In this document: positions 8,596-51,742 of the stretch, one piece after another
Numbering within the stretch: position 1 is the first letter of the stretch
Layout of the letters: every line of letters starts with the position of its first letter
Origin: Ardenticatenia bacterium
GTDB taxonomy: Bacteria > Chloroflexota > Anaerolineae > 4572-78 > NAK82
Assembly (NCBI GenBank): GCA_003130875.1
Contig: QEXY01000143.1
Span: forward strand, 18,338 to 82,337
Length of the DNA stretch: 64,000 nt
Direction of reading: 5' to 3'
The notes under the pieces: generated by a model
Told to the model about the DNA's origin: nothing
Seen by the model: the letters and a program-made list of their open reading frames with translations, nothing else
Database searches by the model: none
Translations under genes and position numbers: made by a program

Positions 8596-8921
8596 ACACA
8601 GTGTCACACATGTTTTAATAAGTTTCCAATGCAGTTTTGCTGCGTTGTTGCCTATTGCTCCCTGACAGACTGCTGAAAGATTGGCTGTCGATTGGCCACG
8701 GTCGCTTTTCCTTTAACACTTGCCAAACAGAAAACTCCAGGGTTCCACGTTCGCCAGCGAGCTCCGCTGTCCTCTCGTCCGTCAGAGCGACACTTCACTC
8801 TGGCCACGAAGTGGACTGCGCAAACAACGCCGAGGCATTTATCCAATTCCATCATAACACAGGTTTTCCAAGTCTCGCAACCTTGCGGGCGCATTGAATA
8901 CATTTCAAACCAGGAGCGAGT

Positions 8922-27395: not shown

Positions 27396-28379
27396 ATGAC
27401 ACAGCGAAATTGGAATATCGGGCGCTCCTTGCCAACGATAGTGGGAATCGTACTTGTGGCAGCGATGATCGGCGGTCTCTTTGCGGTCGGCCCGGCTGCG
27501 GCTATGCAGGCAGGCACCGTGGTACGCGTCCAGCCGGGCACCCAACAAATAGGCATTGGGCAGACCGCCACAGTCGAGATCCGCATTGAGAACGCTTCTG
27601 GGCTGTATGCCGCCGATATCGAGCTCCGTTTCAACCCGGCTGCCTTACAGGTACAAGATGCCGATCCTGGCCGCGACGGGGTTCAGATTCAACCGGGCAA
27701 CTTTCCTTCCCCTGATTTCGTCGCGCTGAACTCTGCTGACAATGCGACGGGGGTCATCCGTTATGCTCTGACTCAGTTGCCGCCGAAAGCCCCGGTCAAC
27801 GGCAGCGGGTTGCTGGCCACGGTGGTCTTCCGCGGCCAGGCAGCAGGTACTGTCGATCTCACGTTCAGCCTGGTCAATCTGGCCAATGCCCAGGGTCAAC
27901 AGCTACCTGCCTCTTCGCAGGGTGGTAACATCATCGTGGGCGGTGGTGGTCCGCCTCCGGCGACCCCAACGCCGCCTCCGGTGACCATGACACCGCCGCC
28001 TCCGGTGACCATGACACCCCCACCGCCGGTGACCGTGACACCGCCACCCACACCGACACGCTACGTCGTGCAACGGGGCGATACATTGTACTCGATTGCA
28101 CGTCGCTTTGGGGTGAGCATCTGGCAGTTGGCATCGCTGAACAACATTCCCAATATCAATTTGATCTACGTGGGCCAGGTGCTTATCATCCCGACACCCG
28201 GACCCACACCCCCTGGACCCGGCCCGGCACCCAGCCAGTATGTTGTCCAGTATGGTGATACTTTGTTCTCCATCGCACGCCGCTTTGGGGTGAATGTCTG
28301 GCAATTGGCGGCATATAACAATATTCCCAACCCTAACTATATCCGAGCCGGTCAGGTCTTGTTGATCCCGCCCCGTTGA
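27396..28379 (+). CDS. cohesin-module protein with two C-terminal LysM domains
   Basis: RBS AGGAGG and signal-anchor [22 protein letters not shown]. Cohesin-like segment: VRVQPG...[32 protein letters not shown]...[18 protein letters not shown] linker, then 2x LysM ([18 protein letters not shown]...). Confidence 0.8.
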
Positions 28380-28425
28380 CAATATCGCTCTGGGAACACC
28401 GAAACCCCGACCAGCGTAGCATCCA

Positions 28426-28470
28426 CCGAGGTCCTATCCGTGACAGTACGGATGGGACCTCGGTGTTTTT
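28426..28470 (+). terminator. rho-independent terminator-like hairpin
   Basis: CCGAGGTCCTATCCGT-loop-ACGGATGGGACCTCGG followed by TGTTTTT, 47 nt after the stop of the cohesin-LysM gene. Confidence 0.65.
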
Positions 28471-28774
28471 GAGGGGTAATCTTCAGAACTGCCATAGTTG
28501 AGATCGAGCCCTTTCTACCTCTACAATGAAGATGTGAGAGAGGCACGCTCTTGGTGTGGTGCCTTCTCGGCAAAGAAAATCGTTCTGCCCAGGTGATCAT
28601 TGCGATGGAGGCATTGATATGGCACAATTACCTTTCCCATCCGGCATAGTGACTTTGCGCGCTTGGAATGTTGGCTATAATTAGCTCAATCTGTGTAGGG
28701 TTGTATGGCTCTGTACGTTAACTACACATTTGTGGTTCAGCTCGAGTTTCGTTATCTCGATCGGGAAAGGTGCT

Positions 28775-29440
28775 ATGACCTTCGTGCGACATCGGAGCTA
28801 CTTGCGTTGTGGATTGGCGATTGTTCTATTGTGCTTCGCTCTTGACTTGGCGGGCTGCGGGGTTGCTGGACAAGCCACGGTCGAAACTCCTCTTGAAGGT
28901 GAAACTTCCATCTCTACGATCAGTTTGTCCCAAGAGGGTGATTCGCCGCTGAGTACCCCGATGGCAGCATCCACGTCGAGTGACACGGACGCGGCTTCAC
29001 TCGCACAAAGGGGTGAGAAGCCAATTGAGCGCGTGCAGTCTTCCAGCATTGCCACGCTGCGCCTGGTGCGCGCGCCGGACGACAGGGCGTTTATGGTGCG
29101 GGTGGACGATGTGCGGGATTTATATGCGGTGGATATGACCATCCGATTTGATCCCACAAAATGGCAGGTCGCGGATGCCGATGGGCAGCAAAGCGGGGTC
29201 CAGGTCAAACCGGGAGAGGCACCCCGCCCTGATTTTGTGGCCGTGAACGATGTAGATAATGCGAAAGGGGTCATTCGCTATATTGCTACTCAACTGGGCG
29301 ATGCCGCTGCATTCAGTGGCAGTGGAACTATTGCCACAATCTTGGGGCAAGCGGCTGTCACTTCAGACGCCGACGTCTCAATTGAGACGGTGACGTTGGT
29401 GAACAAAAATGCCCAGGCGATCGAAGTGGTGGTGCGTTAA
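28775..29440 (+). CDS. cohesin-module lipoprotein
   Basis: Lipobox LDLAGCG. Cohesin-like segment: VRVDDVRDLYAVDMTIRFDPTKWQV...PDFVAVNDVDNAKGVIRYIATQL. Confidence 0.75.
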   Translation: MTFVRHRSYLRCGLAIVLLCFALDLAGCGVAGQATVETPLEGETSISTISLSQEGDSPLSTPMAASTSSDTDAASLAQRGEKPIERVQSSSIATLRLVRAPDDRAFMVRVDDVRDLYAVDMTIRFDPTKWQVADADGQQSGVQVKPGEAPRPDFVAVNDVDNAKGVIRYIATQLGDAAAFSGSGTIATILGQAAVTSDADVSIETVTLVNKNAQAIEVVVR

Positions 29441-29533
29441 TGCTGTTAAGTTGAACAAGGGCGTTAGGTCACGATGATCTGTGCGGGGCTGAGTCTCAGA
29501 GATAGGGTGAGTAGGATGTTCTGTCGCACGATT

Positions 29534-30466
29534 ATGAAGCTCTCAGTGATCGTCTTGGCGCTGTTTGTTGCTCTGATCCCTATCCTGAGTGTGCATGCTC
29601 AGGGGCAGGCGCGCGTATATCTGCAGCCTGTCCTCCTACAAGACGAAAGGCGGATGCTCGTGAATCTTATGGCGGCCGACGTCATAGATCTGTACGGCGT
29701 CGATGTGCAGCTGCGCTATGATCCAGGTCAACTCCAAGTAGAGGACGCTAATCCACGTTTAGAGGGCATTCAAGTTGCCCCAGGGCCCTTGTTAGCTGCT
29801 GATGAACGTTTTGTTGTGACCAACAAGGTAGATGCCACAGCCGGGTTGATCACCTTCGTAGCCACGTTGCTCAACCCAGCGCCACCTGTCAGTGGACAAG
29901 GAGTGCTGGCGACCATTGCATTCCGCGTTCTGGGCAATGGCCCCTATTCCGTGAGGGTCGTGCGGGCTCAGCTGGTTTCCTCAAATTTGACCACCATCCC
30001 AGTGATAAGTGAAAACCTGGAATTGGCTGCACCCCTGGATGTCAGCTTGTCAGAGGGACAAGCTCCCGCCCTTTGGAGCTGGTGGCTTCTCGGGGTTGGG
30101 GGAGTGTTGCTGATGCTCATTGCCTTTTCGGTTGCGTATCAGAGGCGTCGCGCAGCCGCTCTGCAGGGTGCGGTGGTCGTGCATAATAACAGCATATCGA
30201 CTGCAGAACAAAGTGCCAGTGAGGTGGCTGCCACGCTGACTGAACAGGGACGTCGGGCAATGCAACAGGGCAATCTGGAGCTTGCCCACGAGCTGTTCAG
30301 CCGCGCGGTGGAGCGGGATCCCGCTAATAGCGAGGCCTGGCTGGGAAAAGGATTAGTTGCTCGCCAAATCGGCGAAAAGCGCATCTGTTTTCAGCGTGTG
30401 CTGGCGCTTGATCCGAATAATCCGGTTGCTCAGGCCGAATTGCAGCAACTCGAAAGGGCCAACTGA
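29534..30466 (+). CDS. cohesin-module protein with TM helix and C-terminal TPR region
   Basis: Signal peptide MKLSVIVLALFVALIPILSVHA. Cohesin-like segment LMAADVIDLYGVDVQLRYDPGQLQV...GLITFVATLL. TM helix WWLLGVGGVLLMLIAFSVAY. TPR-like C-terminus (GNLELAHELFSRAVERDPANSEAWLGKG). Confidence 0.75.
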   Translation: MKLSVIVLALFVALIPILSVHAQGQARVYLQPVLLQDERRMLVNLMAADVIDLYGVDVQLRYDPGQLQVEDANPRLEGIQVAPGPLLAADERFVVTNKVDATAGLITFVATLLNPAPPVSGQGVLATIAFRVLGNGPYSVRVVRAQLVSSNLTTIPVISENLELAAPLDVSLSEGQAPALWSWWLLGVGGVLLMLIAFSVAYQRRRAAALQGAVVVHNNSISTAEQSASEVAATLTEQGRRAMQQGNLELAHELFSRAVERDPANSEAWLGKGLVARQIGEKRICFQRVLALDPNNPVAQAELQQLERAN

Positions 30467-32236
30467 ATGCATTCCATATATCACGGCTGTCGCATAGGTT
30501 CTCGACCGTGGTCGTGGCTGGGCCTGTTTATCCTCCTGGCCTCTATGGTATCGCCTTGCCTGGCCCAATGGGAAGAGGGCATATCACAATCGATGCGGGT
30601 GGTTGTGGTGCTGCGGCCCCCTTTCCCTTTGGAGCGTGCCGACATCGCCGCACAGGCAGAGGTGGTGGCCCAGGCGCAAGATATGGTGTTGGCCAGCATC
30701 CCCAGCGCTGATTTTCAGCCGCTCCATCGCTATTCGGTTGTGCCAGGTCTAGCCGGTACGGTGACCCCGCAGGGCTGGCAAGCGCTGCTCAGCAACCCAT
30801 TGGTGCAAGCCGTCGCATTTGATCTCCCGGTACAAGCGACATTAGGTGAAAGTGTCTCCGTGATCCGTGCCGATCGTGTTTGGAATGAGTTTAGGTTCAC
30901 TGGTGCTGGCGTCAACGTCGCCGTGCTCGACAGCGGATATGATCCCAACCATCCGGATCTCAATGACAGCATCGTGGCACAGCATTGCTTTAACCATAGC
31001 ACCTGCCCACCGACGAACACCAACGAGGGCGACAGCGCCAAAGACGAGAATGGACACGGCACGCATGTCACTGGCATTATCACTGGGCGCGGGATCGTCG
31101 CGCCGCGTGGCATCGCACCGGATGCCAGTATCGTGGCCGTTCGTGTGCTCAACAGTGCCGGTAGCGGTTGGACTTCGGATGTAGTGGCAGGTATCGACTG
31201 GGTAGTCGCCAATCAGGCACGTCTGAATGTGCGCATTATGAATCTCAGCCTGGGGGGAGGGGCCTATTCTGGCATATGCGACGCGGCGGATGCCAATAGC
31301 ATGCTATATGCCTCTGCAGTACAGGCAGCACAACGTGCGGGTATCATTGTATTTGCAGCGGCAGGTAACGGTGCCATGCTCGATAAGATGATGACACCGG
31401 CATGTATTTCCAGTGTGATAGCCGTCGGTAGTACCTATGACGCCAACTTGGGAGCATATACATGGGGTGGCGCAAACCCTATTTGCACCGATTCCAGCAC
31501 GGTAGTGGATCAGATTGCTTGCACGAGCAACAGCAGCTCCGCTTTGGACCTATTGGCACCAGGAGCGGTGATCACCTCGGCCGGGCTAGGAGGCGGGGTG
31601 AGCAGCCGTTCTGGGACTTCCATGGCTACACCGCACGCTTCTGCTGTGGCTGCTTTATTGCTGCAGGCACAGCCAGGGCTTTCAGCCGGGCAAATCGAGA
31701 GCATTCTCAAGGAAACGGGTGTGCCCATCACCGACTGGAGGAATGGCCGTGTCACGCCGCGCGTGGATGCCTACGCGGCGGTACAGCGGGTCACAGGCGG
31801 AGCGGGACCTGGAACGCCTATCGGTGGCACCGTGCTCTTGCAGAGTCGGAACACACACGATGGCATCGCGATCTACGTAAGTGGCCAACCATGCACTGCA
31901 TCTCTTTCAGGGGATCAAGTCACCACCACTGATGCCTCTGGCCGCTTTCAACTGCCGCCGGGACAGGCTGCCCAATGTCTGTGGGCAGTGCGGCCTGGAT
32001 TCTTGAGCGCACAAAGGACAGCACCATCCGGTTCGCTCGGCACGATAACGCTGCTTGCTGGAGACGTGAACCGTGATAACCTGATCAACATCTTCGATAT
32101 CGCTGCCGTGGCCGGGAATTACGGAGGCAACACCCCCCTGGTCGATTTCAATGGAGACCAGATGGTCGATATTTTCGATCTGGTCATTGCAGCGGTTAAC
32201 TACGGGAAACGCGGCCCACTGACCGACTGGCATTAA
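30467..32236 (+). CDS. subtilisin-family (S8) serine protease with C-terminal dockerin
   Basis: Asp (VAVLDSGYD), His (HGTHVTG) and Ser (GTSMATPH) triad motifs. The start abuts the stop of the preceding cohesin gene. Confidence 0.88.
   Translation: MHSIYHGCRIGSRPWSWLGLFILLASMVSPCLAQWEEGISQSMRVVVVLRPPFPLERADIAAQAEVVAQAQDMVLASIPSADFQPLHRYSVVPGLAGTVTPQGWQALLSNPLVQAVAFDLPVQATLGESVSVIRADRVWNEFRFTGAGVNVAVLDSGYDPNHPDLNDSIVAQHCFNHSTCPPTNTNEGDSAKDENGHGTHVTGIITGRGIVAPRGIAPDASIVAVRVLNSAGSGWTSDVVAGIDWVVANQARLNVRIMNLSLGGGAYSGICDAADANSMLYASAVQAAQRAGIIVFAAAGNGAMLDKMMTPACISSVIAVGSTYDANLGAYTWGGANPICTDSSTVVDQIACTSNSSSALDLLAPGAVITSAGLGGGVSSRSGTSMATPHASAVAALLLQAQPGLSAGQIESILKETGVPITDWRNGRVTPRVDAYAAVQRVTGGAGPGTPIGGTVLLQSRNTHDGIAIYVSGQPCTASLSGDQVTTTDASGRFQLPPGQAAQCLWAVRPGFLSAQRTAPSGSLGTITLLAGDVNRDNLINIFDIAAVAGNYGGNTPLVDFNGDQMVDIFDLVIAAVNYGKRGPLTDWH
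32060..32209 (+). other. dockerin module (two EF-hand-like segments) of the S8 protease
   Basis: GDVNRDNLINIFDIAAVAGNYG...VDFNGDQMVDIFDLVIAAVNYG, the duplicated D-x-N/D-x-D...D calcium-loop plus helix pattern of type I dockerins. Confidence 0.75.
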
Positions 32237-32483: not shown

Positions 32484-32561
32484 ATGAAACCTCGTGAAAC
32501 AGAGATTAGAGAATTAGTGCGCCACGTGCTCCATCGCGTGCTGCGCGAGACCCAGCGCGGT
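32484..32561 (+). other. putative BMC encapsulation-peptide-like helix on RpiB
   Basis: [26 protein letters not shown] has an amphipathic i/i+3/i+4 hydrophobic pattern resembling Pdu/Eut N-terminal targeting helices. Confidence 0.5.
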
Positions 32562-33191
32562 GAACATAGGCTGCTGACCAGCCAAGAGATCGAGCAATTG
32601 GAACCGGGGAGCAAAATCCAGATCGAACCAGGCACCATCGTCACCCCTATGGCACGCGAAATTGCGTTAGCGCGCAAAATTCTGATCGAGGAGATCTCTG
32701 CTAAAAGCGGTCAAGCGACTCCTGCACCTGCGACAGGCAAGGTGGTGGCTTTGGGGGCCGATCACGGAGGCTATGAGCTCAAAGAGCTGTTGAAACCTTT
32801 TCTCATCGAGCTGGGCTATGAAGTGTTGGACGTCGGCACGCACAGCAAGGAAGCGGTGGATTATCCTGACTTTGCTTATGCGGTCGCCCGGCATGTGGCC
32901 AGCGGAGCTGCCTTTCGTGGCATCATCATCGATGGTGCAGGTATTGGCTCGTGTATGGTTGCCAACAAGGTGCCAGGGATACGGGCAGCAATGTGCTATG
33001 ACCAGATGTCTGCTGTTAACAGCCGTGCGCACAACGATGCAAATGTGCTCACTCTGGGTGCCGGTTTGTTGGGCCCCAATCTGGCAAAGCAGATTGTCAA
33101 GACCTGGTTGAGCACCAATTTCGAGGGAGGTCGTCATCAACCGCGTATTGACAAGATGATGGCTATCGAGGCACGATATCTCAAGAGATAA
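32484..33191 (+). CDS. rpiB: ribose-5-phosphate isomerase B (RpiB/LacAB family) with ~90-aa N-terminal extension
   Basis: The core [14 protein letters not shown]...[15 protein letters not shown]...[12 protein letters not shown] is canonical RpiB. The N-terminus carries an amphipathic helix [18 protein letters not shown] plus a second conserved-looking segment. Confidence 0.88.
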
Positions 33192-33211
33192 GAAGAGGGA
33201 TCCTAGAGGGT

Positions 33212-34123
33212 ATGGTGTCGACATCAAGAAGTAATATGCAACTAGATTCCAAGACAATTGATTCATTGGTTGAAGAGATAACCAGACAGGTACTGACGGT
33301 TTTGAAGGAGCAGAGCAGTCGGTCAGATGTCTTTCAGCAAGCAACGGACACCATGTCCTCTTGCAGTCGATGCGAGGAGAGAGGTGCGCAACACCTGCCT
33401 AAGACGATTCGAGATGACACAGGGCGCCCAGGTGTCCTATCGGATGCACGAATAACGGCCCAGGAACTCGCCCGCTATATCGACCACACGTTGCTCAAGC
33501 CGGACGCTACTTACGCTCAAATTTCTCAGCTGTGCGAGGAAGCGCGCCAGTACGGTTTTGTCACGGTGTGCGTCAACCCTGTCCATGTGCGATTGTGTGC
33601 CCAGCTACTGCGCGGGTCGGGGGTCGGGATCTGTTCTGTGGTAGGATTTCCACTTGGGGCAACACCCACCAATGTCAAGTGTTATGAGACACAACAGGCG
33701 ATCAGCGATGGCGCCACTGAGATCGATATGGTGATCAACATCGGTGCACTCAAAAGCAAAGATTACGACTCGGTCAGAGAAGATATCGCGGCTGTGGTAC
33801 GTACCTGTCATAACCATGGGGCCATTTGCAAGGTGATTATCGAAGCGGCATTGTTGACCGATGATGAAAAGATCAAGGCGTGTCAGCTGGCTAAGGAAGC
33901 GGGCGCCGACTACGTCAAAACATCCACCGGGTTTGGACCTGGTGGCGCAACCTTGCATGACGTGATGCTGATGCGCCAGGCGGTGGGACCGGACATGGGG
34001 ATCAAAGCGGCCGGTGGGATCAGAACCTACCAGGATACCGTGGCGATGATCAAAGCCGGTGCCACCCGCATCGGCGCTAGCGCCAGCCTCAAAATTATGG
34101 AAGGCGCGCGTTCAGCATCCTGA
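33212..34123 (+). CDS. deoC: deoxyribose-phosphate aldolase with ~85-aa N-terminal extension
   Basis: Core [12 protein letters not shown]...VCV...[11 protein letters not shown]...DYVKTSTGF (Schiff-base Lys)...GIKAAGGIR. The N-terminal extension contains [19 protein letters not shown]. Confidence 0.88.
33236..33313 (+). other. putative BMC encapsulation-peptide-like helix on DeoC
   Basis: [26 protein letters not shown] is an amphipathic helix, followed by a low-complexity linker before the aldolase core. Confidence 0.5.
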
Positions 34124-34143
34124 GGCGGTAAAGGGGGCGGCCT

Positions 34144-34824
34144 GTGAGCCGCATTGCGTCCTATATTGATCACACTTTGGTACGCGCCGATGCCACACCC
34201 GAGCAAATCGCTCGTCTGTGCCGAGAGGCATGCGAGCATCGCTTTGCTGCTGTGGCGGTCAACGAAGTCCATGTCCATCTCGCTGGTCGTCTGCTCCGCG
34301 GCACAGGGATCTCCGTGGCGTGTGCTATAGGTTTTCCTCTAGGTGGGACGAGCACCTGGGTGAAGTGGTACGAGGCACGCAGCGCACTGCGCGGGGGCGC
34401 CAATGAGCTGGATGTGATGATCTACTTGGGCGCTCTCAAGGATGGTCGCTATGACTTGGTAGAGCATGACCTGAGCGCTATCGTGCGGCTCTGCCGCGAT
34501 TATGGTGCGCGGTGCAAGGCCATCTTGGAATGTGCTCTGCTGACCGAGGACGAAAAAGTGCGCGCGTGTCAGCTGGCAGTTGCCGCGGGGGTGGACTTCG
34601 TAAAAACGTCAACAGGCTATGGCCCGAGCGGCGCAACAGTGCACGATGTGACCCTGCTACGTCGTTTGGCTCCACCTACTGTAGGTGTCAAGGCAGCGGG
34701 TGGCATTCGCACTTATGCGGATGCAATCGCCATGATAGAAGCCGGTGCAACACGTCTCGGAGTCAGTGCCCAAGCCAGTCTGCAAATTTTGAGCGAAGAG
34801 CGCTTGCTCTTGGAAAACCCATAG
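34144..34824 (+). CDS. deoC: deoxyribose-phosphate aldolase (second paralog, no extension)
   Basis: GTG start after the RBS AAAGGGGG. YIDHTLVRADAT...ANELDVMIYLG...DFVKTSTGY...GVKAAGGIR. Confidence 0.85.
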   Translation: MSRIASYIDHTLVRADATPEQIARLCREACEHRFAAVAVNEVHVHLAGRLLRGTGISVACAIGFPLGGTSTWVKWYEARSALRGGANELDVMIYLGALKDGRYDLVEHDLSAIVRLCRDYGARCKAILECALLTEDEKVRACQLAVAAGVDFVKTSTGYGPSGATVHDVTLLRRLAPPTVGVKAAGGIRTYADAIAMIEAGATRLGVSAQASLQILSEERLLLENP

Positions 34825-34827
34825 CAG

Positions 34828-34915
34828 AGGGTGTTGAAAAAGTCCCTTGACCGCTCAGATTTTCATAGGAAAATGGGCCAATAAAGCGGGTAACTAAAGA
34901 GTTTTTCAACACTCT
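34828..34915. repeat. MITE-like element, copy 2, with 8-bp target-site duplication CATAGCAG
   Basis: TIRs AGGGTGTTGAAAAA / TTTTTCAACACTCT. CATAGCAG is present at 34820-34827 and 34916-34923. The left duplicate contains the deoC2 stop codon. Confidence 0.85.
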
Positions 34916-34950
34916 CATAGCAGTGGATGTGAAACGGATGAGGTTTTGCG

Positions 34951-35226
34951 ATGTACATCGGACGCGTGCGGGGAAGTGTGATGAGTACAATTAAATTGGA
35001 GATCTATGAAGGGTGTCGTTTGCTCGTGATCGATCAGCTGGATTTAGACGGCAATCCGACCGGCGAGTACGATATCTGCGTCGATGTCGCCCAGGCTGGT
35101 CCGGGCGATATTGTATTCGTGATCGACGAGGGCAATTCGGGGCGTCAGATCCTCGGTCGTGAGCCGGACGGCGCGGTGCGAGCTGTGCTGGCCGGCGTTG
35201 TGGATGAGATCGAATGGCACGCATAA
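34951..35226 (+). CDS. bacterial microcompartment vertex (pentamer) protein, EutN/CcmL/PduN family
   Basis: 91 aa. The pattern MYIGRVRGSVMSTIK...GCRLLVIDQLDLDGNPTG...VDVAQAGPGDIVFV...AVLAGVVDEIE aligns motif-for-motif with EutN (G.V..T.K...KLL.V..D..G.P.G...A.D..GAG.G..V...GIVD). Confidence 0.85.
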   Translation: MYIGRVRGSVMSTIKLEIYEGCRLLVIDQLDLDGNPTGEYDICVDVAQAGPGDIVFVIDEGNSGRQILGREPDGAVRAVLAGVVDEIEWHA

Positions 35227-43264: not shown

Positions 43265-46200
43265 TCATCCGGGCGGGGGCGTGATGATCACCGCCTGCCA
43301 CGTTTGACCGCTCAGGCCTTTGTCATCCGTGACAGTCAGCACTACTGTGTAGGTGCCTGGCTGGTCGTAAATCTTGGTTACCTCCGCGTCATAGGCCACG
43401 GTGCCATCTCCGAAGTCCCAGATATATTGCACAATGCTACCATCACTGTCATTCGAGGTGGCGCCACTGAAGGCGAGTGGCTGCTGCGGTAGCCCACCTG
43501 CCAAGCCAGGGCCGCTAATGACCGCTGTCGGGGGTACATTATCGGGCGGTGGTGGTTCAACCGTGATAGGTTGCAAGGCCTGACCAATGGCACCCGCGTC
43601 GTCGGTCACCGTTAGTGTGATGGTATAGACACCTGTTTGCGTATAAACTTTGTTGACTGTCACACCGTTCCAGGCACTGCCGTCACCGAAGTTCCAAGCG
43701 TAGTGAACGATGCTTCCATCCGGGTCAACTGAACCGCTGCCATCGAGGGCCAACAGCATGCCCACCTGTGCTTGAGGTGGCGCCATGATAACAGCCACTG
43801 GCGGCTGGTTCGGCACCGGTGTAGGTGTGGGTTGTTCGATCATCACCTGCTGTACCGCCTGCCCAGTCAAACCACCGTCGTCTGTCACTGTCAACTGCAC
43901 CGTGTATGTGCCTGCCTGAGCATAAGCGTGCTGCACCTCCGGGCCGCTTGCACTCGTGCCATCGCCGAAGTCCCAGGCATAGGCGGTGATGCTGCCGTCC
44001 GGGTCGTATGAGCCACTCCCATCGAAGGTGAGCACCTCGCCCACCAGCCCGCTCGCCGGCGCGGCAATCTGTGCCGTCGGCGGCTGTCCAGGCGTCGGCT
44101 CGGGCGTCGGTGTCGCCGTGGGCTCAGGCGTGGGTGTGTCCGTCGGCGGCACCGGCGCGGGCGTCGGAGTGGGTTCCACGACTGCCACTGTCCAGGTAGC
44201 CTGTCCGATCAGCCCACCGGCATCGAGCACCGTCAACTGCACCGTGTATGTGCCCGCCTGAGCATAGGTGTGCTGCACCACCGGGCCGCTTGCACTCGTG
44301 CCATCGCCGAAGTCCCAGGCATAGGTGGTGATGCTGCCGTCCGGATCAACTGAGCCACTCCCATCGAAGGTGAGCACCTCACCCACCAGCCCGCCCGCCG
44401 GCCCGACAATCTGTGCCGTCGGCGGCTGTCCAGGTGTCGATGTCGGTTCAGGTGTCCAGGTCGCCGTCGGTGTGTCGGTCGGCATCGGCGTCCAGGTCGG
44501 TGTGGGTGTGACACTGGGTGTCAGCGTCCCCGTCGGTGTGGGCTCGGGCGTCCACGTTGCAGTGGGTGTATCCGTCGGCATCGGTGTCCAGGTCGGCGTG
44601 GGCGTCCACGTTGGAGTGGTGGTTGGGCCGGGCGTTGGGGTCGCCGTAGGTGTTGGTGTCAGGGTCGGTGTCAGTGTTGGTGTCGGTGTGGGCGTCGGCG
44701 ACACGATGTCCACCCGAATCGCCGCGGTTGCTACCATACCTTCGCTGTCGACCACCAGCAGGGTCACCTGGTAAATGGCCGGATTATTGTATACATGGTT
44801 GACCACGATGCCCTCTGCCGTGCTGCCATCCCCAAAGTCCCAGCGGTACCAGGAGATTTGCCCATCCGGATCATACGAGTTCGCTGCGCTGAAGGTGAGC
44901 CGCTGACCCACTTGAGCGCTGGTAGGCCCGCTGATGACCGCCCGCGGCGGTTGTCCCATAGCGCCAATGTGGACAGTCGTCTGGGCGAACCCCTGTCCGC
45001 CGTCCTTGTCCGTGACGGTGACTGTGGCAACGTAGGTGCCAGGACTATTATAAACGTGGCTGACCACCGCCCCGCTGCCCTGCAAACCGTCGCCGAAATC
45101 CCAGCGATAGCTCAATGTTGCCTGGTCGACAGGGCTGGGGTCATAGGCAGATGCTGAGAGAGTCACCGGTTGGCCCACACGACCGGAGTAAGGACCGCCA
45201 GCAAATGCGATGGGCGGTACATTCCGCACATCCACACGGGTGGTGGCCAAGTCTGTGGCGCCGCGATTGTCGGTCACGCGCAGTCCGACGAGTATAGAAG
45301 CCGGGCCATCCGCAAAAGAGGTGCTCACAAGAGGCCCACTGCCGATCACGTTGATGGCACGTCCATCGGTGGTGGTACCCCACTGATAGAGGACAATGCG
45401 CCCGTCTTCGTCGCGTGAAGCGGTGCCATCAAGGATCACCTCGGAGCCCTCATCCACGACGTAAGGCCCGCCTGGGTTCGCTCTAGGGGGTCTATTGGTC
45501 GGTTGTCCTTGACCTGTGTCAAGCCGCTCCCAACGCAGTGTGATCAGGGCATCACCAGTGCGCTCGTAATATTCCAGCCGCAGGCGGTGGATGCCTGCAT
45601 CGAGAGGGCGCTCAGCGCGCAACAGACGCGAGCCCCCATCGCGCCAATCGTCTATCACCAGCTGATCGTCAATCCACAGACGTGCGCCGTCGTCCACCCG
45701 CACGCTGAAGCGGTAGGTGCCACCCTCAAAACCGATCTGGCGCGTCCAACGTGCTGAGAAGTTATCGGCCGGCACCCCCGGCCCGGGCGAGCCCTGTCCC
45801 CAGTTGTAATTGATATCCAGTTCATTGCGTACCAGCACAGGGTTACCCGTCAAACTAGGGTTGGCATAATACTCTGCCTTCCAATCCGGATACGACTCCA
45901 ATCGCTCCCACATCAGCTGGACCAATGCATTGCCGGTCCATTCGAAGTACTCAATGCGCAGGTGATGGGGTCCCTCGCTCAAAGTGACATCGGCGGCGTA
46001 GAGTGCCGGCGCGCTTTCATGCCATCGGTCGATGATCAGATTGCCGTCAATCCACACTCGGACGCCGTCGTCGACGCGCACATAGAAACGGTATGTGCCA
46101 CCAGGGAAGCCGATGGTACGTGTCCAGCGTGCCGAGAAGCGATCCGGCGGTATGTTGGGCGCAGGGGAACCGGCGCCCCAGTCAAAATTGATGGCTGGAT

Positions 46201-47125
46201 CATTGCGCACCAGTACAGGTGAACCGCCCAAGGCGGGGTTGTTGAAGTACTCTCCGCGCCAATCGGTAATAACAGGGGGTGTCGGAGGCGGCGGAGGCAC
46301 TAGAGTGGATGGAGGCAGAGGCGGAGTCGGCTGCTGAGGCGGAGGCGGTGGTGCCACCACCGGCACGTTGCTCACATTCTCTGCCGTCACATACTGTCCG
46401 GCCACCCAACCCCGTTCGCCTGGCACACCGGGGAAAGCGATCTGCCACCAACTCCCTTCGGCGTTGCGTCCGGTCACCGGAGCGGTCTGGCCTACCGCCA
46501 GCAGACCCAGGGAGGGGTACTGTGTGCCCGGACCACTGCGTACGTTAAGGTCCGTATTGGCTGTGATCCTCGGAGTGCCTGGCTGAACCGGTGTTACCGG
46601 CACAGGAGCAGTGACGCTCACTATTACAGTGGGCGTCAGAGTTGGGGTGGCAGCTACTGTCGGTGTGGGTGTCTCCACAGCCGGCTCCAAATTAAAGGGG
46701 GCTTGGGCGGTCAATCCTCCGCCGACCACCTGGGCAACCACCGTCGCGGTGCCGGGAGTGCGCCATTTTGCATCGCTGGGGATGGTGAACTGGGTATCAA
46801 AGCGACCTTGGGTGTCAGTCAGATTGCCGGCCATTGCGTAGCTAGGCAGTGCCGTCTCATCAGGTGCTAGCAGATAGATGAGCACCATCGTTTCTGGAGG
46901 CCAATTTTCACCGCGTACGGTCACAGGAGTGCCTGGCGGGCCGGCCGTTGGTTCAACCGTGATAGTGGGCAAGCCGGTCACTGTCTCAGGTGGTCGTGCT
47001 AACCCAATCCGACTGACAACTAAAACGGCCACCAAGACCGCTGCGATGACCACTAAAGCCCATACGGTCACTACAGCGATCACGATCAGCTTGTTTTCCC
47101 GGAGATATCGCATCAAGTCTTGCAT
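43265..47125 (-). CDS. membrane-anchored surface protein with SH3b, two PA14 and ~8 PKD domains
   Basis: 1286 aa. N-terminal TM; SH3b ([15 protein letters not shown]...WWQIAF); PA14 x2 ([13 protein letters not shown]...RFSARWTR...[17 protein letters not shown]); repeated PKD cores (YxWDFGDGS...HxYxxxGxYxVxLTVTD) joined by TPTPT linkers. Confidence 0.88.
43889..44440. repeat. recent intragenic duplication of a PKD module (two ~210-bp copies, period ~343 bp)
   Basis: 43889-44098 and 44232-44440 differ at only scattered positions by eye. The flanking TPT linker ([19 protein letters not shown]) is also duplicated further along. Confidence 0.7.
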
Positions 47126-48929: not shown

Positions 48930-49658
48930 ATGAGAGCACAGAAGAGCTTTATCACCTTGCTGGTCGTCCTATTGATGGTAGGAGTATTGGGGTGTGTACT
49001 GACAGATCGACTGTCTGGGCGACGTAGCACACGTCCTGTCTCAGTAGTGCGGCAGGTGGCCACACGCACACCGTTGCCCACCTTTACACCGACTCCTCCG
49101 GCTACACCCACCCCGCTCCCTACGCTGACACCTACGAACACGTCCACGCCGACGCCGACGTTGACACCGACACCAACGGACACACCTACTCCAACCAACA
49201 CGCCACGACCCAAGCCCAAACCAACGGAGCCGCCACCGGAGGCACAGGCTCCGCCACCTCAGCCGACTCCTGAGTACCAATTTTCACCAGAGCCTTGGGA
49301 AGGACAGTGGAACGGTGGATTGGCACAAATCCGAGGCAAGATTCGTGATCGCAATGGACAACCTGTCAACGGCTACTTTGTGCAGGCGCGCTGTGGGGGT
49401 ACTGTATTGGCGTCCAATCCATCTGGCATCAATCTCTATGCTCCCGACAAACCTTATGAACCTGGTGCCTACGATATGATTCTCAGCTCGCCGTTGGATC
49501 CCAACTCAATGTGTCGATGGGAGGTGCGTGTGGTACAAGCTTCCAATTATGAGGAGGCCAAAAACCCTGGAGCGCCTTCCCTTTCGCCTGTGGGATACTG
49601 TGATTTGAGCTGGGGCGAGATGTCCATCTGTTTTGCTAATTGGCGCAAGAACTGGTGA
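48930..49658 (+). CDS. PT-linker lipoprotein-like protein with 4-Cys C-terminal domain (type A)
   Basis: LLVVLLMVGVLGC; TRTPLPTFTPTPP motif; TPEYQF junction. The C-terminal ~125 aa are highly similar to the end of 19072-20040 and end in NWRKNW. Confidence 0.8.
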   Translation: MRAQKSFITLLVVLLMVGVLGCVLTDRLSGRRSTRPVSVVRQVATRTPLPTFTPTPPATPTPLPTLTPTNTSTPTPTLTPTPTDTPTPTNTPRPKPKPTEPPPEAQAPPPQPTPEYQFSPEPWEGQWNGGLAQIRGKIRDRNGQPVNGYFVQARCGGTVLASNPSGINLYAPDKPYEPGAYDMILSSPLDPNSMCRWEVRVVQASNYEEAKNPGAPSLSPVGYCDLSWGEMSICFANWRKNW

Positions 49659-51742
49659 CCGAACGGGACGAGCGTTACGACACTTTCATCACAGCACTGC
49701 TGGTCACAGCCCTGGTGATGTTGGCCTGTGTGGTCAGCGGCATAGGTGCGTACTTGTCGCTGCGGATGGCGCCGCTACATCACATACACGCATCCGTCAC
49801 CACTGTGACTCCGACGCCTACCGCTCATGTTCTGGCTATCCCCGACTCTCCTAAGTTGCACCCAACACTGCCAGCCGCTGTAGAAGGAAAGGGATATCTG
49901 TCGCGAGGTGGACAACCTGAAGGCATCGGCTTAACAACGGAGCAGCTGTTGGACGAGGTCGAGATCCCAGTGCGCGACCGTCTGGCATTGGCACAACGCC
50001 TGAAGCTGTCCGATACCCCCATTCCGTCTGTCGTCAATGCGGTAACACCGATTTATCGCCTAGGGGAGCAACACAATTTCTGCGTGCTGGATAGTGACGC
50101 GGTACGATATACGTGGGCAGTTGCCACGTTGCGCTATGTAGGCGATCATAGCTATTGGTGGGTGCAAGATGGTCACTCTGTGAGCGACGAAGCAATCACT
50201 GCCTCGGCACAGGAGTTCGAACAGCGTATTTACCCCACGAACCGCGATTTCTTTGGTGGGGAGTGGAGTCCGGGAGTGGATAATGATCCGCGTATCCATA
50301 TCTTTTTGGGCGATGTGCCGGGTGTAAGCGGATATTTCTACAGTGCTAATGAATACTCCTGCTTGATCAATCCATGTAGCAACGAGAAGGAGATGTTCTA
50401 TATCAACATCAATGCTGTGTCGCCGGGCAGCGAGGATCTCCATATCACTTTAGCCCACGAGTTCCAACATATGATCCATTGGCATCACGATGCCAACGAG
50501 GAAACGTGGGTCAATGAGGGGTTGTCCAATTTGGCCGTTGAGCTCAATGGATATGAAACGGCCGACATCACCTACGCTTTCAGCCAGCGACCTGATACCC
50601 AGTTAAACACCTGGGCAGAGGCGCCTCAGGACACTTTTCCTCACTATGCTGCCAGTTATCTTTTCATGAGCTATTTCCTCGAGCGCTTTGGCGAGGACAT
50701 AATGCGTGAGGTAGTAGCAGAACCGGAAAATGGGATCGCTGGCTTCAACGCTGCTTTAGCGCGAGCACGACGGCCATATCGTTTCGCGGATGTCTTCGCC
50801 GACTGGGTGATTGCAAACTATTTGGACGACCCCACCACCGGGTATGGGAATTGGGGCTATCGGCGACTGGATCCACAGCCGGTTAAGATCGAGGCAGAGT
50901 ATAGTGCCTACCCTGTTGAGGTAAGTGGCCAGGTCGGCCAGTATGCCACCGATTATTTCAAGTTCGGTGGCATGGGAGATCTGACAATCGAGTTCGAAGG
51001 TGTCCAGCACGTCAGGATTGCCCCCAATGAGCCCCATAGCGGTACCTTTCAGTGGTGGTCGAATCGCGGCGATGATTCGGACATGACATTGACGCGCTCT
51101 TTCGACCTTTCCCATGTGAGTGAGGCAACGCTCGAATTTTGGCTCTGGTACGACATCGAAAAGGGATGGGATTTTGCATACGTTGAAGTGTCCGAGGATG
51201 GCGGCAAGACCTGGACCATCTTGCCCGGTCGTTATACCGAGACAGATAACCCTAGCGGCAACAGTTTCGGCGCAGCGTGGACCGGCATCTCAGGGGGAGG
51301 TGAGGTGCCCCAATGGGTACATGAGCAGGTGGATTTGACCCCATATACGGGACGTCAAGTGCAAGTCCGATTCGAGTACATCACGGATGATGCGGTAAAC
51401 CGCGTGGGTCTCATGCTAGATGACATCGCGATCCCCCAGCTTGGTTACTTCGACGATGTCGAGGCTGGAGATGGTGGCTGGGTGGCCCATGGGTTCGTGC
51501 GCGTTGACAATATATTGCCACAGCGCTACTTGGTCCAGGTCATTCAGAAGGGGGATACCGTGCGGGTTCAGCGCATGACCCTCGATCAGGATAACCGCGG
51601 CCGGTTGACACTCCGCGGAATGGGCAGGGCATTTTCTGAAGCAGTGCTGGCCGTAAGCGGTATAACCCCGTTTACAACCGAACCGGCTCTGTACCGCATA
51701 CGTGCCAGCTTGATATCTCCTTCCGACGAGACACAGCCTTGA
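49640..51742 (+). CDS. membrane-anchored HExxH zinc metalloprotease (InhA/M6-like or MA-clan)
   Basis: N-terminal TM ITALLVTALVMLACVVSGIGAYL. Zinc site TLAHEFQHMIHW...WVNEGLS. The C-terminal beta domain LWYDIEKGWDFAYVEVSEDGGKTWTIL resembles InhA-type domains. The start is uncertain (TTG 49640 or GTG 49655) and overlaps the upstream gene. Confidence 0.75.
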   Translation: MAQELVTERDERYDTFITALLVTALVMLACVVSGIGAYLSLRMAPLHHIHASVTTVTPTPTAHVLAIPDSPKLHPTLPAAVEGKGYLSRGGQPEGIGLTTEQLLDEVEIPVRDRLALAQRLKLSDTPIPSVVNAVTPIYRLGEQHNFCVLDSDAVRYTWAVATLRYVGDHSYWWVQDGHSVSDEAITASAQEFEQRIYPTNRDFFGGEWSPGVDNDPRIHIFLGDVPGVSGYFYSANEYSCLINPCSNEKEMFYININAVSPGSEDLHITLAHEFQHMIHWHHDANEETWVNEGLSNLAVELNGYETADITYAFSQRPDTQLNTWAEAPQDTFPHYAASYLFMSYFLERFGEDIMREVVAEPENGIAGFNAALARARRPYRFADVFADWVIANYLDDPTTGYGNWGYRRLDPQPVKIEAEYSAYPVEVSGQVGQYATDYFKFGGMGDLTIEFEGVQHVRIAPNEPHSGTFQWWSNRGDDSDMTLTRSFDLSHVSEATLEFWLWYDIEKGWDFAYVEVSEDGGKTWTILPGRYTETDNPSGNSFGAAWTGISGGGEVPQWVHEQVDLTPYTGRQVQVRFEYITDDAVNRVGLMLDDIAIPQLGYFDDVEAGDGGWVAHGFVRVDNILPQRYLVQVIQKGDTVRVQRMTLDQDNRGRLTLRGMGRAFSEAVLAVSGITPFTTEPALYRIRASLISPSDETQP

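What the first reader, a model, noticed from the sequence alone, without database searches (positions are those of the whole stretch)
27396..32236. Non-cellulosomal cohesin-dockerin cluster: three differently anchored cohesin proteins followed by a dockerin-tagged S8 protease
Four co-directional, tightly spaced genes make up this cluster.
- Genes 1-3 each carry one cohesin-like module (for example [17 protein letters not shown]...[27 protein letters not shown]...GVIRYIATQL, LYGVDVQLRYDPGQLQV...GLITFVATLL).
- Each uses a different anchor. Gene 1 has a signal-anchor plus two LysM domains (peptidoglycan). Gene 2 has a lipobox (LAGC). Gene 3 has a signal peptide, a TM helix and a presumably cytoplasmic TPR tail.
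- Gene 4 starts at the nucleotide after gene 3's stop. It is a subtilase with an intact D/H/S triad and a two-segment dockerin (DVNRDNLINIFD / DFNGDQMVDIFD).
- No glycoside hydrolase or CBM is nearby.

The arrangement suggests a protease display system that can be positioned on wall, membrane or a transmembrane adaptor. The cohesin-TM-TPR protein could couple extracellular docking to a cytoplasmic partner. Genomic surveys have noted cohesin and dockerin outside cellulosomes, but I am not aware of functional work on an arrangement like this.
Basis: partly seen in the sequence, partly recalled or inferred. Interest (0 to 1): 0.78.

Follow-up and report, generated by a model that had tools for sequence, protein, structure and literature searches.

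The report
Cohesin–dockerin tethered protease in Anaerolineae
A filamentous Chloroflexota (Anaerolineae) bacterium encodes a secreted subtilisin-type protease that carries the plug (dockerin) of the cellulosome plug-and-socket system, next to three differently anchored socket (cohesin) proteins. With no cellulases nearby, this looks like a way to hold a protease, and in related bacteria a cell-wall amidase, at the cell envelope.

Summary
All four + strand genes exist, and each of genes 1-3 carries one cohesin above Pfam's gathering score. The gene 3 model matches only solved cohesins. Gene 1 has two LysM domains. Gene 2 has a lipobox conserved in 8 of 9 orthologs. Gene 3 is signal peptide, cohesin, TM helix and TPR tail. 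Gene 4 is an S8 protease (D155/H197/S385) whose ATG directly follows gene 3's stop.

Two corrections:
- Gene 1 is set apart by a roughly 350-nt gap holding a conserved terminator-like hairpin, so the operon is probably genes 2-4.
- The gene 4 C-terminus is not a bare dockerin. It is an X-module plus dockerin dyad that superposes on type II X-Doc structures.

Comparative genomics adds context:
- The gene 3 plus gene 4 pair is adjacent in 11 of 13 Chloroflexota species genomes.
- Ten related genomes also encode Amidase_2-(cohesin)-X-dockerin proteins in the cluster. The window has none.
- The gene 3 TPR tail recurs at the N-terminus of many other Chloroflexota membrane exoproteins.

Best reading: a non-cellulosomal, type II-like cohesin/X-dockerin system tethers envelope hydrolases. 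Binding itself is untested. I call it a new variant of a known kind, of moderate interest.

The parts
27396..28379 (+). Gene 1: secreted cohesin-LysM2 protein. The ORF is open from GTG 27354, and ATG 27396 matches the called start in relatives. Hydrophobic signal 27423-27509 ending AAA|MQ; cohesin 27552-27920; Pro/Thr-rich linker about 27942-28058; LysM1 28062-28193; LysM2 28239-28370.
   Evidence: Cohesin 28.6 bits, LysM 131.5 bits; 326-aa ortholog call.
28424..28470 (+). Terminator-like hairpin (19-bp stem, 11 G-C pairs, 4-nt loop, then TTTTT) just after gene 1.
   Evidence: One search gives -36.9 kcal/mol in the window. The equivalent hairpin with a T-run occurs in L001, L003 and L013, with base changes on both arms that preserve pairing.
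28498..28527 (+). Sigma-70-like promoter match (TTGAGA-18-TACAAT, 10 of 12) ahead of gene 2. This is a consensus match only.
28775..29440 (+). Gene 2: cohesin lipoprotein. The ORF is open from TTG 28730; ATG 28775, preceded by GGAAAGGTG, is the likely start. Lipobox LAGC 28847-28858; Ser/Thr-rich linker; cohesin 29057-29431.
   Evidence: Cohesin 28.9 bits; lipobox in 8 of 9 orthologs.
29534..30466 (+). Gene 3: bitopic cohesin-TM-TPR protein, 310 aa from ATG 29534 (the ORF is open from 29474). Signal peptide 29534-29599 (VHA|QG); cohesin 29600-30031; TM helix about 30080-30139 followed by QRRR; cytoplasmic TPR-like tail 30206-30460.
   Evidence: P0001: 310 aa, 100% identical; AF2 pLDDT 86.3; tail pLDDT 98; cohesin fold.
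30467..32236 (+). Gene 4: secreted S8 protease with an X-dockerin dyad. Signal peptide 30467-30565 (CLA|QW); propeptide about 30566-30856; S8 catalytic domain 30902-31720 with D155 (30929-30931), H197 (31055-31057) and S385 (31619-31621); X-module beta-sandwich 31823-32056; dockerin 32057-32233 with Ca-loop motifs at 32063-32098 and 32144-32179.
   Evidence: AF2 pLDDT 94.3, pTM 0.86; X-Doc dyads, TMq 0.69-0.74.

Best explanation
The cluster encodes a non-cellulosomal, type II-like cohesin/X-dockerin tethering system for an envelope hydrolase.

Proposed steps:
1. Gene 4 is exported through Sec and sheds its propeptide.
2. It is then held non-covalently, and probably in a Ca2+-dependent way, through its C-terminal X-module plus dockerin dyad on a single-cohesin receptor.
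3. The cognate receptor is the protein made just before it from the same message: gene 3, a bitopic membrane protein. Its cohesin sits only about 18 residues above the membrane. Its cytoplasmic TPR-like tail is the most conserved part of the protein.
4. Gene 2 (lipoprotein, membrane) and gene 1 (LysM, peptidoglycan; separate transcript) are paralogous alternative receptors that could place the same enzyme elsewhere in the envelope.

In other Anaerolineae the same cluster also docks N-acetylmuramoyl-L-alanine amidases. It also contains proteins with both a cohesin and a dockerin, which could chain together.

I therefore think the system acts on the cell's own wall and envelope (remodelling or maturation in a filamentous organism), with the TPR tail fixing where this happens.

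Status of each step:
- Shown: domain identities, folds, topology signals and conserved synteny.
- Inferred: cohesin-dockerin binding (I rate it about 0.75), gene 3 as the main partner, and the substrate being the cell's own envelope (the weakest step).
For: Domain identity.
- Cohesins score above the Pfam gathering score in genes 1-3.
- The AF2 model of gene 3 matches only cohesins among the top 50 PDB hits, with type II cohesins best.
- The gene 4 tail model (pLDDT 94.3) matches whole X-Doc dyads of type II complexes: 2b59_B, 5g5d_B and 4wi0_B, with TMq and TMt about 0.7.
- The profile of ortholog C-termini finds solved dockerins (best E 5e-6). 32 of 34 orthologs hit Pfam Dockerin_1.

Coupling of genes 3 and 4.
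- The stop codon and the ATG abut.
- The pair is adjacent in 11 of 13 species genomes holding a full-length gene 3 homolog, down to 46-48% identity.
- Many gene 3 and gene 4 homologs list the same longest-contig length.

Co-occurrence. Among the distinct cohesin-bearing loci held, all but one (L022) also hold a dockerin.

Link to the cell wall.
- Gene 1 carries LysM domains.
- Amidase_2-(Coh)-X-Doc proteins occur in 10 related genomes, and in L014 the gene lies between the gene 1 and gene 2 orthologs.
- The amidase X-Doc is 36-42% identical to the gene 4 X-Doc.

Membrane-proximal geometry and the conserved tail.
- In the AF2 model the beta-sandwich ends near residue 164 and the TM helix starts near 180.
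- The tail has pLDDT 98, and 17 of the 23 invariant alignment columns fall in it.
Against: - No binding data exist, and no complex model could be made with these tools.
- The window's own dockerin is borderline against Pfam: 22.8 bits against 22.9.
- There are three cohesins but only one dockerin in 64 kb, so other partners elsewhere in the genome are likely.
- The amidase link comes from relatives. No amidase catalytic domain lies in the window or in the flanks of four close relatives.
- An S8 protease with an I9-like propeptide is equally typical of a feeding enzyme.
- The TPR tail also sits on exoproteins that look nutritional (nuclease, alpha/beta hydrolase). This weakens a morphogenesis-specific reading.
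Confidence: 0.4

Rival explanations
1. The docking is the same, but the purpose is feeding. On this reading the complex is a surface-retained, cellulosome-like 'lyticome' or proteolytic complex. It digests foreign protein and peptidoglycan (necromass or prey) and keeps enzymes and products close to the cell. LysM would bind the substrate or the cell's own wall.
For: - The S8 protease has a signal peptide and a propeptide.
- Proteins carrying both cohesin and dockerin could chain into multi-enzyme assemblies, as cellulosomal adaptor scaffoldins do.
- Extra dockerin proteins carry Filamin, PKD or Ig-like modules.
- Related metagenomic proteins carry 3-5 cohesins of this type, for example P0209.
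- The 'lyticome' idea and dockerin-bearing cell-wall hydrolases have already been raised in the literature (PMC6403190).
- The TPR module also sits on nuclease and hydrolase exoproteins.
Against: - The gene 3 cohesin lies about 18 residues from the membrane, so it sits under or within the wall rather than exposed.
- A feeding display does not obviously need a cytoplasmic tail that is more conserved than the ectodomain.
- The cluster is single and syntenic across deep divergence, which is more usual for housekeeping functions than for feeding enzymes.
Confidence: 0.3
2. Gene 3 is mainly a transmembrane sensor or regulator rather than an anchor. Occupancy of its cohesin by a dockerin protein, or cleavage of gene 3 by the S8 protease, would be relayed to a cytoplasmic partner through the TPR tail. 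The logic resembles the RsgI-type anti-sigma factors that sense polysaccharides in cellulosome producers.
For: - The bitopic topology with a highly conserved cytoplasmic module.
- Two-component regulators flank the cluster: a PAS/GAF hybrid kinase upstream in the window, and a LuxR-type response regulator upstream in L005 and L007.
- The RsgI precedent is cited in PMC12484212.
Against: - Gene 3 has no anti-sigma, kinase or DNA-binding domain; only TPR models hit.
- No sigma factor gene is adjacent in the window or in the related loci examined.
- The same tail occurs on many unrelated exoproteins. That fits a generic handle better than a dedicated signalling output.
Confidence: 0.1
3. The neighbours are not partners. 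The gene 4 dockerin would bind a cohesin encoded elsewhere, or none at all. The three cohesins would bind other dockerin proteins or non-dockerin ligands, and the adjacency would reflect shared regulation only.
For: - There are three cohesins against one dockerin in 64 kb.
- The dockerins of all enzymes in the related clusters are very alike (80-117 bits to one HMM). Specificity therefore cannot be read from sequence.
- A recent study of a minimal cellulosome-like system suggested that its cohesin protein may also bind proteins lacking canonical dockerins (PMC13487519).
Against: - The stop and start codons abut, or overlap by 4 nt in L005.
- The pair is adjacent in 11 of 13 genomes.
- Cohesin and dockerin co-occur in all but one of the distinct cohesin-bearing loci held.
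Confidence: 0.1

Closest known systems
Type II cohesin / X-module-dockerin anchoring of the Clostridium thermocellum and Acetivibrio cellulolyticus cellulosomes (for example CipA X-Doc with SdbA or ScaC cohesins; PDB 2b59, 5g5d, 4u3s, 4wi0)
   Same: - The gene 4 tail model superposes on the whole X-Doc dyad: TMq 0.69-0.74, TMt about 0.7.
- The gene 3 cohesin model is closest to type II cohesins, E 2.4e-9.
- In both cases the interaction serves attachment to a cell-bound protein.
   Different: - Here the X-Doc sits on enzymes (S8 protease; amidase in relatives), not on a scaffoldin.
- The receptors use LysM, a lipid anchor or a TM helix plus TPR tail instead of SLH modules.
- There are no glycoside hydrolases or CBMs.
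- The phylum is Chloroflexota, not Bacillota.
- Sequence identity is only 12-21%.
Dockerin-bearing peptidases of cellulosome producers: the C. thermocellum S8 protease with a double dockerin that prefers the cell-bound ScaD cohesin, and the Ruminococcus flavefaciens cysteine peptidase whose X-Doc binds ScaE (described in review PMC12484212)
   Same: A secreted peptidase, S8 in the first case and X-Doc-tagged in the second, is docked to a cell-surface cohesin rather than to the enzyme-integrating scaffoldin. In both the role is unknown and is proposed to be processing or turnover.
   Different: - Those peptidases are accessories of true cellulosomes.
- Here the protease is the conserved core cargo.
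- Its receptor gene is probably translationally coupled to it.
- The receptor has a cytoplasmic TPR tail.
Experimentally studied non-cellulosomal cohesin-dockerin systems: Archaeoglobus fulgidus (PDB 2xdh) and Clostridium perfringens toxin/glycosidase complexes (2jh2, 2vo8, 2w1n; dockerin 2jnk/2ozn). The genomic survey by Peer et al. 2009 is cited; the paper itself was not held.
   Same: - Cohesin and dockerin occur outside plant cell-wall degradation.
- These structures are among the fold and profile hits.
- The proteins carry single modules.
   Different: - The cargo in C. perfringens is glycoside hydrolases acting on host glycans.
- According to PMC13487519, non-cellulosomal carriers are 'predominantly non-catalytic'. 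Here the carriers are a protease and peptidoglycan amidases.
- I found no report of a cohesin-TM-TPR receptor or of this conserved gene pair.
'Lyticome' concept: an extracellular cohesin-dockerin complex of cell-wall hydrolases (Vermassen et al. 2019, PMC6403190)
   Same: Peptidoglycan hydrolases (Amidase_2) carry dockerins and sit in one cluster with cohesin proteins in 10 related Anaerolineae genomes.
   Different: - The concept was raised for rumen Bacillota as an add-on to cellulosomes.
- The window itself has only the protease and no amidase.
- Whether the target is the cell's own wall or a foreign one is unknown.
Cytoplasmically controlled extracellular wall hydrolases such as FtsEX with EnvC, PcsB or CwlO. 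This is a functional analogy from general knowledge, not a tested relationship.
   Same: The logic is the same: a membrane-spanning adaptor with a cytoplasmic face holds an extracellular hydrolase at a defined place.
   Different: - There is no sequence or fold relationship.
- There is no ATPase.
- The coupling here would be through cohesin-dockerin and a TPR tail.
- The comparison is entirely inferential.

Membership tests
Cohesin (Pfam PF00963) | Sequence profile match at or above the curated gathering score | tested here: met
   Genes 1-3 score 28.6, 28.9 and 31.4 bits against 24.1. Orthologs are annotated the same way.
Cohesin (Pfam PF00963) | Flattened beta-sandwich (jelly-roll) fold superposable on solved cohesins | tested here: met
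   Gene 3 model: all 50 top Foldseek PDB hits are cohesins, probability 1.0, TMt 0.6-0.77. Genes 1 and 2 were not modelled; they are 36-47% identical paralogs.
Cohesin (Pfam PF00963) | Binds a dockerin | not testable with these tools
   No multimer prediction or coordinates were available. Only co-occurrence and synteny bear on this.
Dockerin (Pfam PF00404) | Sequence profile match at or above the gathering score | tested here: inconclusive
   The window protein scores 16.6 bits in full and 22.8 bits for the isolated tail, against 22.9. 32 of 34 orthologous tails match, best E 2.4e-10. The family profile hits solved dockerins, best E 5e-6.
Dockerin (Pfam PF00404) | Two duplicated segments, each an EF-hand-like Ca loop (D-x-N/D-x-D...D) followed by a helix | tested here: met
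   DVNRDNLINIFD at residue 533 and DFNGDQMVDIFD at residue 560. Each is followed by a helix in the model (fragment residues 102-110 and 129-137). The dockerin part superposes on 2y3n_B at 1.1 A over 51 columns. Ca2+ binding itself was not tested.
Type II cohesin / X-dockerin pair | An Ig-like X module directly N-terminal to the dockerin and packed against it | tested here: met
   The model of residues 441-589 (pLDDT 94.3, pTM 0.86) aligns over 158-166 columns to X-Doc dyads 2b59_B, 5g5d_B, 4wi0_B, 5m0y_B and 4u3s_B, TMq 0.69-0.74. This is a prediction, not a solved structure.
Type II cohesin / X-dockerin pair | The partner cohesin is of type II | tested here: inconclusive
   The best fold hits are type II cohesins (E 2.4e-9). 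Type I and non-cellulosomal cohesins follow within about two orders of magnitude. No phylogeny of cohesin types was made.
Cellulosome | A scaffoldin with two or more cohesins (definition quoted in PMC13487519) | tested here: not met
   Each of genes 1-3 has exactly one cohesin.
Cellulosome | At least one dockerin fused to a glycoside hydrolase | tested here: not met
   The only dockerin in 64 kb is on the S8 protease. The cluster and the flanking genes examined carry no GH or CBM domains. The rest of the genome is not available.
Peptidase S8 (subtilase) | Profile match and an intact Asp/His/Ser triad | tested here: met
   PF00082 scores 155.8 bits against 21.8. D155, H197 and S385 align with the triad motifs of 3afg, E 3.5e-34.
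Mycosin (T7SS-associated S8, TIGR03921) | NCBIfam equivalog cut-off | tested here: not met
   112.1 bits against a cut-off of 278.75. No T7SS genes lie nearby.
LysM peptidoglycan-binding module | Profile match | tested here: met
   PF01476 scores 131.5 bits with two stretches in gene 1.
Bacterial lipoprotein | Lipobox [LVI][ASTVI][GAS]C at the end of a signal-peptide h-region | tested here: met
   LAGC lies at ORF residues 40-43, after the hydrophobic stretch 23-49. L[AST]GC is conserved in 8 of 9 orthologs. Lipidation itself is not testable here.
RsgI-type anti-sigma sensor | A cytoplasmic anti-sigma domain and an adjacent sigma factor gene | tested here: not met
   Only TPR models hit the gene 3 tail. 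No sigma factor gene is adjacent.

The most novel reading that the evidence does not exclude
The cohesin-TM-TPR protein would be a transmembrane positioning or control device. A Chloroflexota-wide cytoplasmic TPR 'handle', shared with many other membrane-anchored exoproteins, would recruit it to a defined cellular site or partner, for example the septa of the filament. The outside-facing cohesin would then load X-dockerin-tagged wall hydrolases (S8 protease, MurNAc-L-Ala amidase) exactly there. That would make it a cohesin-dockerin-based, cytoplasm-directed system for wall remodelling in multicellular filaments. Its logic would resemble FtsEX-controlled hydrolases, but it would be built from cellulosome parts.
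Probability: 0.2. Interest if true: 0.8.

Novelty: new variant of a known kind. Interest (0 to 1): 0.55.

Why it matters
Cohesin-dockerin pairing is textbook for cellulosomes. Outside them it has a demonstrated role in only a few cases.

This finding gives a conserved, compact and experimentally tractable case in a poorly studied phylum:
- One protease and three single-cohesin receptors.
- A core pair kept across class-level divergence.
- Cargo that consists of envelope hydrolases rather than carbohydrate-active enzymes.

If the docking is real, three things follow:
1. The type II X-Doc solution for strong attachment has been used outside Bacillota to hold enzymes directly on the cell.
2. There would be a concrete system in which to test the 'lyticome' and wall-remodelling ideas.
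3. The short, highly conserved TPR module would stand out as a common cytoplasmic handle of Chloroflexota membrane exoproteins whose partner is unknown.

It could also supply orthogonal cohesin/X-dockerin pairs for protein-display engineering.

Tried and rejected
- Exact look-up of the gene 4 protein found nothing on record, so the source genome and its full dockerin census could not be reached.
- A single-sequence search of the gene 3 cohesin against PDB sequences was not significant (E 1.3). The fold search was needed instead.
- I considered translating genes 3 and 4 as one in-frame fusion to model the complex in AlphaFold. I dropped the idea because the tool returns no coordinates or PAE, so an interface could not be read.
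- A profile search with the X-Doc alignment, meant as a census of cargo types, returned almost only short or fragmentary proteins and was uninformative.
- The mycosin and anti-phage IteS readings of the S8 domain were rejected: 112 bits against 278.75, and 21.8 against 900.
- tblastn of three cluster amidases against the window found only the X-Doc and cohesin parts. No amidase catalytic domain lies in the 64 kb or in the flanks of four close relatives.
- Peer et al. 2009, the key survey of non-cellulosomal modules, is not held. It is cited only through papers that quote it.
- Literature searches combining cohesin or dockerin with Chloroflexi, Anaerolineae, LysM, amidase and protease found no description of this arrangement. 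One Anaerolineae genome paper reported finding no cohesin or dockerin in its six genomes (PMC4877987).
- I considered a co-evolution test to pick the cognate cohesin. I did not run it, because too few genomes hold all four genes.

Full report
**1. What is there**

The window (64 kb, 54-63% G+C) carries four + strand ORFs at the reported position. Refined starts are as follows.
- Gene 1, 27396-28379. The ORF is open from 27354, and relatives call the shorter form.
- Gene 2, 28775-29440. The ATG is preceded by GGAAAGGTG, and relatives call a 221-aa product.
- Gene 3, 29534-30466. A 310-aa database protein is 100% identical.
- Gene 4, 30467-32236.

Pfam results:
- One Cohesin module above the gathering score in each of genes 1-3: 28.6, 28.9 and 31.4 bits against 24.1.
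- Two LysM domains in gene 1.
- TPR in gene 3.
- Peptidase_S8 (155.8 bits) in gene 4, plus a sub-threshold Dockerin_1 hit (16.6 against 22.9) and a faint CarboxypepD_reg-like hit.

The three cohesins are paralogs, 36-47% identical, with E 1e-18 to 1e-29. The gene 3 stop TGA (30464-30466) abuts the gene 4 ATG, and both genes are in the same frame. The two Ca-loop motifs in gene 4 are the only such motifs in ORFs of 100 aa or more across the six frames of the window. HMMs I built for the cohesin, dockerin, S8 and TPR parts hit only these four genes in the 64 kb.

**2. Is the tail a dockerin?**

Yes, at family and fold level.
- A profile of 34 orthologous C-termini finds solved dockerins (best 2y3n_B, E 5e-6; nearly all of the 29 hits are dockerin modules).
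- 32 of the 34 tails individually match Pfam Dockerin_1, best E 2.4e-10. The window's own tail scores 22.8 bits against 22.9.
- An AlphaFold2 model of residues 441-589, built on 27 orthologs, has pLDDT 94.3 and pTM 0.86. It shows a beta-sandwich followed by two helices.
- Its ten best PDB matches are all X-module plus dockerin dyads of type II cohesin-dockerin complexes: 4fl4, 3kcp, 2b59_B, 5g5d_B, 4wi0_B, 5m0y_B, 4u3s_B and 5k39_B. E is 1.5e-8 to 1.5e-6, TMq is 0.69-0.74, and TMt is about 0.7 for the isolated dyads.

**3. Are the sockets cohesins?**

The gene 3 model (47 orthologs; pLDDT 86.3) has these parts:
- a signal helix;
- a beta-sandwich at residues 26-164;
- a long helix at 180-210 that holds the hydrophobic WWLLG...AY segment and is followed by QRRR;
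- a five-helix tail at 228-309 with pLDDT 98.

All 50 top Foldseek PDB hits are cohesins. Type II cohesins come first (4u3s_A and 5k39_A, E 2.4e-9). The list includes the non-cellulosomal cohesins of A. fulgidus (2xdh) and C. perfringens (2jh2). The hydrophobicity profile and the positive-inside charge support the topology: cohesin outside, tail inside.

**4. Anchors and transcription**

- The gene 2 lipobox LAGC is conserved as L[AST]GC in 8 of 9 orthologs.
- The hydrophobic N-terminus of gene 1 ends in AAA|MQ. It may therefore be cleaved, leaving a LysM-held wall protein.
- Genes 1 and 2 are separated by 350-395 nt.
- The gap holds a 19-bp G+C-rich hairpin plus T-run (28424-28470), followed by a promoter-like site.
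- The hairpin recurs in relatives, with base changes on both arms that preserve pairing.

Gene 1 is therefore probably its own transcript, and genes 2-3-4 form the operon. The S8 domain is closest among solved structures to the Thermococcus subtilase 3afg (E 3.5e-34), with D155, H197 and S385 aligned. It fails the mycosin cut-off.

**5. Relatives**

- Gene 3 has 87 database clusters, nearly all of about 300-350 aa with the same architecture. Those that carry a name are annotated as Anaerolineae or Chloroflexi MAGs.
- An exhaustive search finds 39 representatives at E < 1e-30. About 20 of them are full-length. The rest include multi-cohesin proteins.
- In GTDB species genomes, 13 hold a full-length homolog. 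All are Chloroflexota: Anaerolineae, Ardenticatenia and Caldilineaceae.
- In 11 of the 13, the S8-X-Doc gene follows directly. The junction abuts or overlaps by 4 nt in the window, L001, L003 and L005.
- Close relatives (73-87% identity) keep all four genes downstream of cytochrome bd oxidase genes.

More distant genomes (46-56% identity) have a larger cluster:

[dockerin-only, about 365 aa] [Filamin/PKD/Ig-Coh-Doc] [Amidase_2-Coh-X-Doc, 770-900 aa] [Coh-TM-TPR] [S8-X-Doc] [Coh-LysM]

Further points on these clusters:
- In L014 the amidase gene lies between the gene 1 and gene 2 orthologs, which is where the window has its gap.
- A third form lacks the TM-TPR gene and has [Coh-Doc] [Amidase_2-Doc] [S8-Coh-X-Doc, 767 aa].
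- The amidase X-Doc is 36-42% identical to the gene 4 X-Doc. No amidase catalytic domain lies in the window or near four close relatives.

**6. The TPR tail**

The tail is the best conserved part of gene 3: 17 of the 23 invariant alignment columns fall in it, including C285 in EKRICFQR. The genome scan and my tail HMM find the same roughly 75-aa module elsewhere.
- It scores 38-65 bits and is 30-47% identical to the gene 3 tail.
- It lies at the extreme N-terminus of at least 25 other Chloroflexota proteins.
- It is followed by a spacer, a TM helix and varied ectodomains: alpha/beta hydrolase, LysM, SNase nuclease and VWA. Some instead have a B-box zinc finger plus several TM helices.

Hits outside the phylum are weaker internal repeats of long TPR proteins. 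One caveat applies: part of the motif is the generic TPR consensus, and the scan was seeded with patterns taken from this motif.

**7. How it most likely works**

- Shown: domain identities, folds, topology signals and synteny.
- Inferred: the exported protease docks through X-Doc on the gene 3 cohesin, which sits about 18 residues above the membrane. Alternatively it docks on the lipoprotein or LysM cohesins.

Three things point to envelope hydrolases held in or under the cell's own wall: the amidase cargo in relatives, the LysM receptor, and the membrane-proximal geometry. The conserved cytoplasmic tail suggests that placement is directed from inside the cell.

The main rival keeps the docking but makes it a feeding complex acting on foreign protein and peptidoglycan, the 'lyticome' idea of PMC6403190. 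Chaining through proteins that carry both modules favours this, as does the degradative look of the S8 protease. A signalling role for gene 3, and non-partnership of the neighbours, are less likely.

**8. Comparison with what is known**

- Type II Coh/X-Doc pairs anchor cellulosomal scaffoldins to the cell.
- Dockerin-tagged peptidases that bind cell-bound cohesins are known in C. thermocellum (an S8 with a double dockerin that binds ScaD) and R. flavefaciens (a cysteine peptidase whose X-Doc binds ScaE), as described in PMC12484212.
- Non-cellulosomal pairs have been studied in A. fulgidus and C. perfringens. They were surveyed by Peer et al. 2009 (cited; not held).

The present system is not a cellulosome, because it has single cohesins and no dockerin-fused glycoside hydrolase.

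What appears undescribed in the literature I could search:
- the conserved Coh-TM-TPR plus S8-X-Doc pair;
- X-Doc placed directly on envelope hydrolases in Chloroflexota;
- the link to a TPR handle found across the phylum.

**9. Verdict**

- It is a new variant of a known kind.
- Interest is 0.55.

Noticed in passing
window 30206-30460; L023-L053, L066, L072, L089 (for example L024:5656-8169, L026:9362-10948, L039:9941-11632, L046:9977-12250): The roughly 75-aa cytoplasmic TPR-like tail of gene 3 (AWLGKG...EKRICFQRVLALDPNN) recurs at the extreme N-terminus of at least 25 other Chloroflexota membrane proteins. These carry varied ectodomains (alpha/beta hydrolase, LysM, SNase, VWA) or a B-box zinc finger plus several TM helices. 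It looks like a cytoplasmic handle used across the phylum, and its partner is unknown.
   Followed up: partly
window 28424-28470; L001 about 6886-6930, L003 about 6966-7012, L013 about 8718-8762: A very stable hairpin (-33 to -42 kcal/mol) plus a T-run lies just after the cohesin-LysM gene. It is conserved in relatives, with base changes on both arms that preserve pairing. This fits a conserved intrinsic terminator that splits gene 1 from genes 2-4.
   Followed up: partly
L014:7316-9634; L016:7300-9882; L017:6366-9764; L018:7299-9803; L019:7264-9843; L020:7249-9852; L021:1-2502; L008:6272-7972: N-acetylmuramoyl-L-alanine amidase (Amidase_2) proteins carry a cohesin and an X-dockerin in the homologous clusters of related Anaerolineae. 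In L014 the gene sits between the gene 1 and gene 2 orthologs. The gene is absent from the window and from the fetched flanks (8-10 kb each side) of its closest relatives.
   Followed up: yes
L008:7995-10304 (P0128, 767 aa) and similar proteins P0120 and P0124: A variant protease has the order S8 - cohesin - X module - dockerin in one chain. It lies next to an Amidase_2-dockerin gene and several small cohesin genes, and the locus has no TM-TPR receptor gene. It could self-chain or act as an adaptor.
   Followed up: partly
L016:13056-16466: An odd 1136-aa fusion reads Amidase_2 - cohesin - CarboxypepD_reg-like (X) - dockerin - di-haem cytochrome c peroxidase (CCP_MauG, 120 bits). It lies directly downstream of the S8-X-Doc gene.
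   Followed up: no
window 32484-35226: Directly downstream of the cluster lie RpiB/LacAB (32484-33191), two DeoC-family aldolases (33212-34123 and 34144-34824) and a lone EutN/CcmL microcompartment vertex gene (34951-35226). A 1770-aa multi-PAS/GAF hybrid sensor kinase follows. No BMC shell (hexamer) gene turned up among the nearby genes scanned.
   Followed up: no
window 43265-47125 (- strand) and 49640-51742 (+ strand): Two further large secreted-looking proteins lie here. One is a 1286-aa protein with 6 PKD, 2 PA14 and an SH3_3 domain. The other is a 700-aa protein with an immune-inhibitor-A-like MAM domain. Neither has a cohesin or a dockerin.
   Followed up: no
P0209 (1030 aa), P0217 (624 aa), P0219 (1005 aa): Metagenomic proteins carry 3-5 tandem cohesins closely related to the gene 3 cohesin (E 1e-46 to 1e-62). 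They are scaffoldin-like multi-cohesin proteins of the same cohesin type, from unidentified organisms.
   Followed up: no
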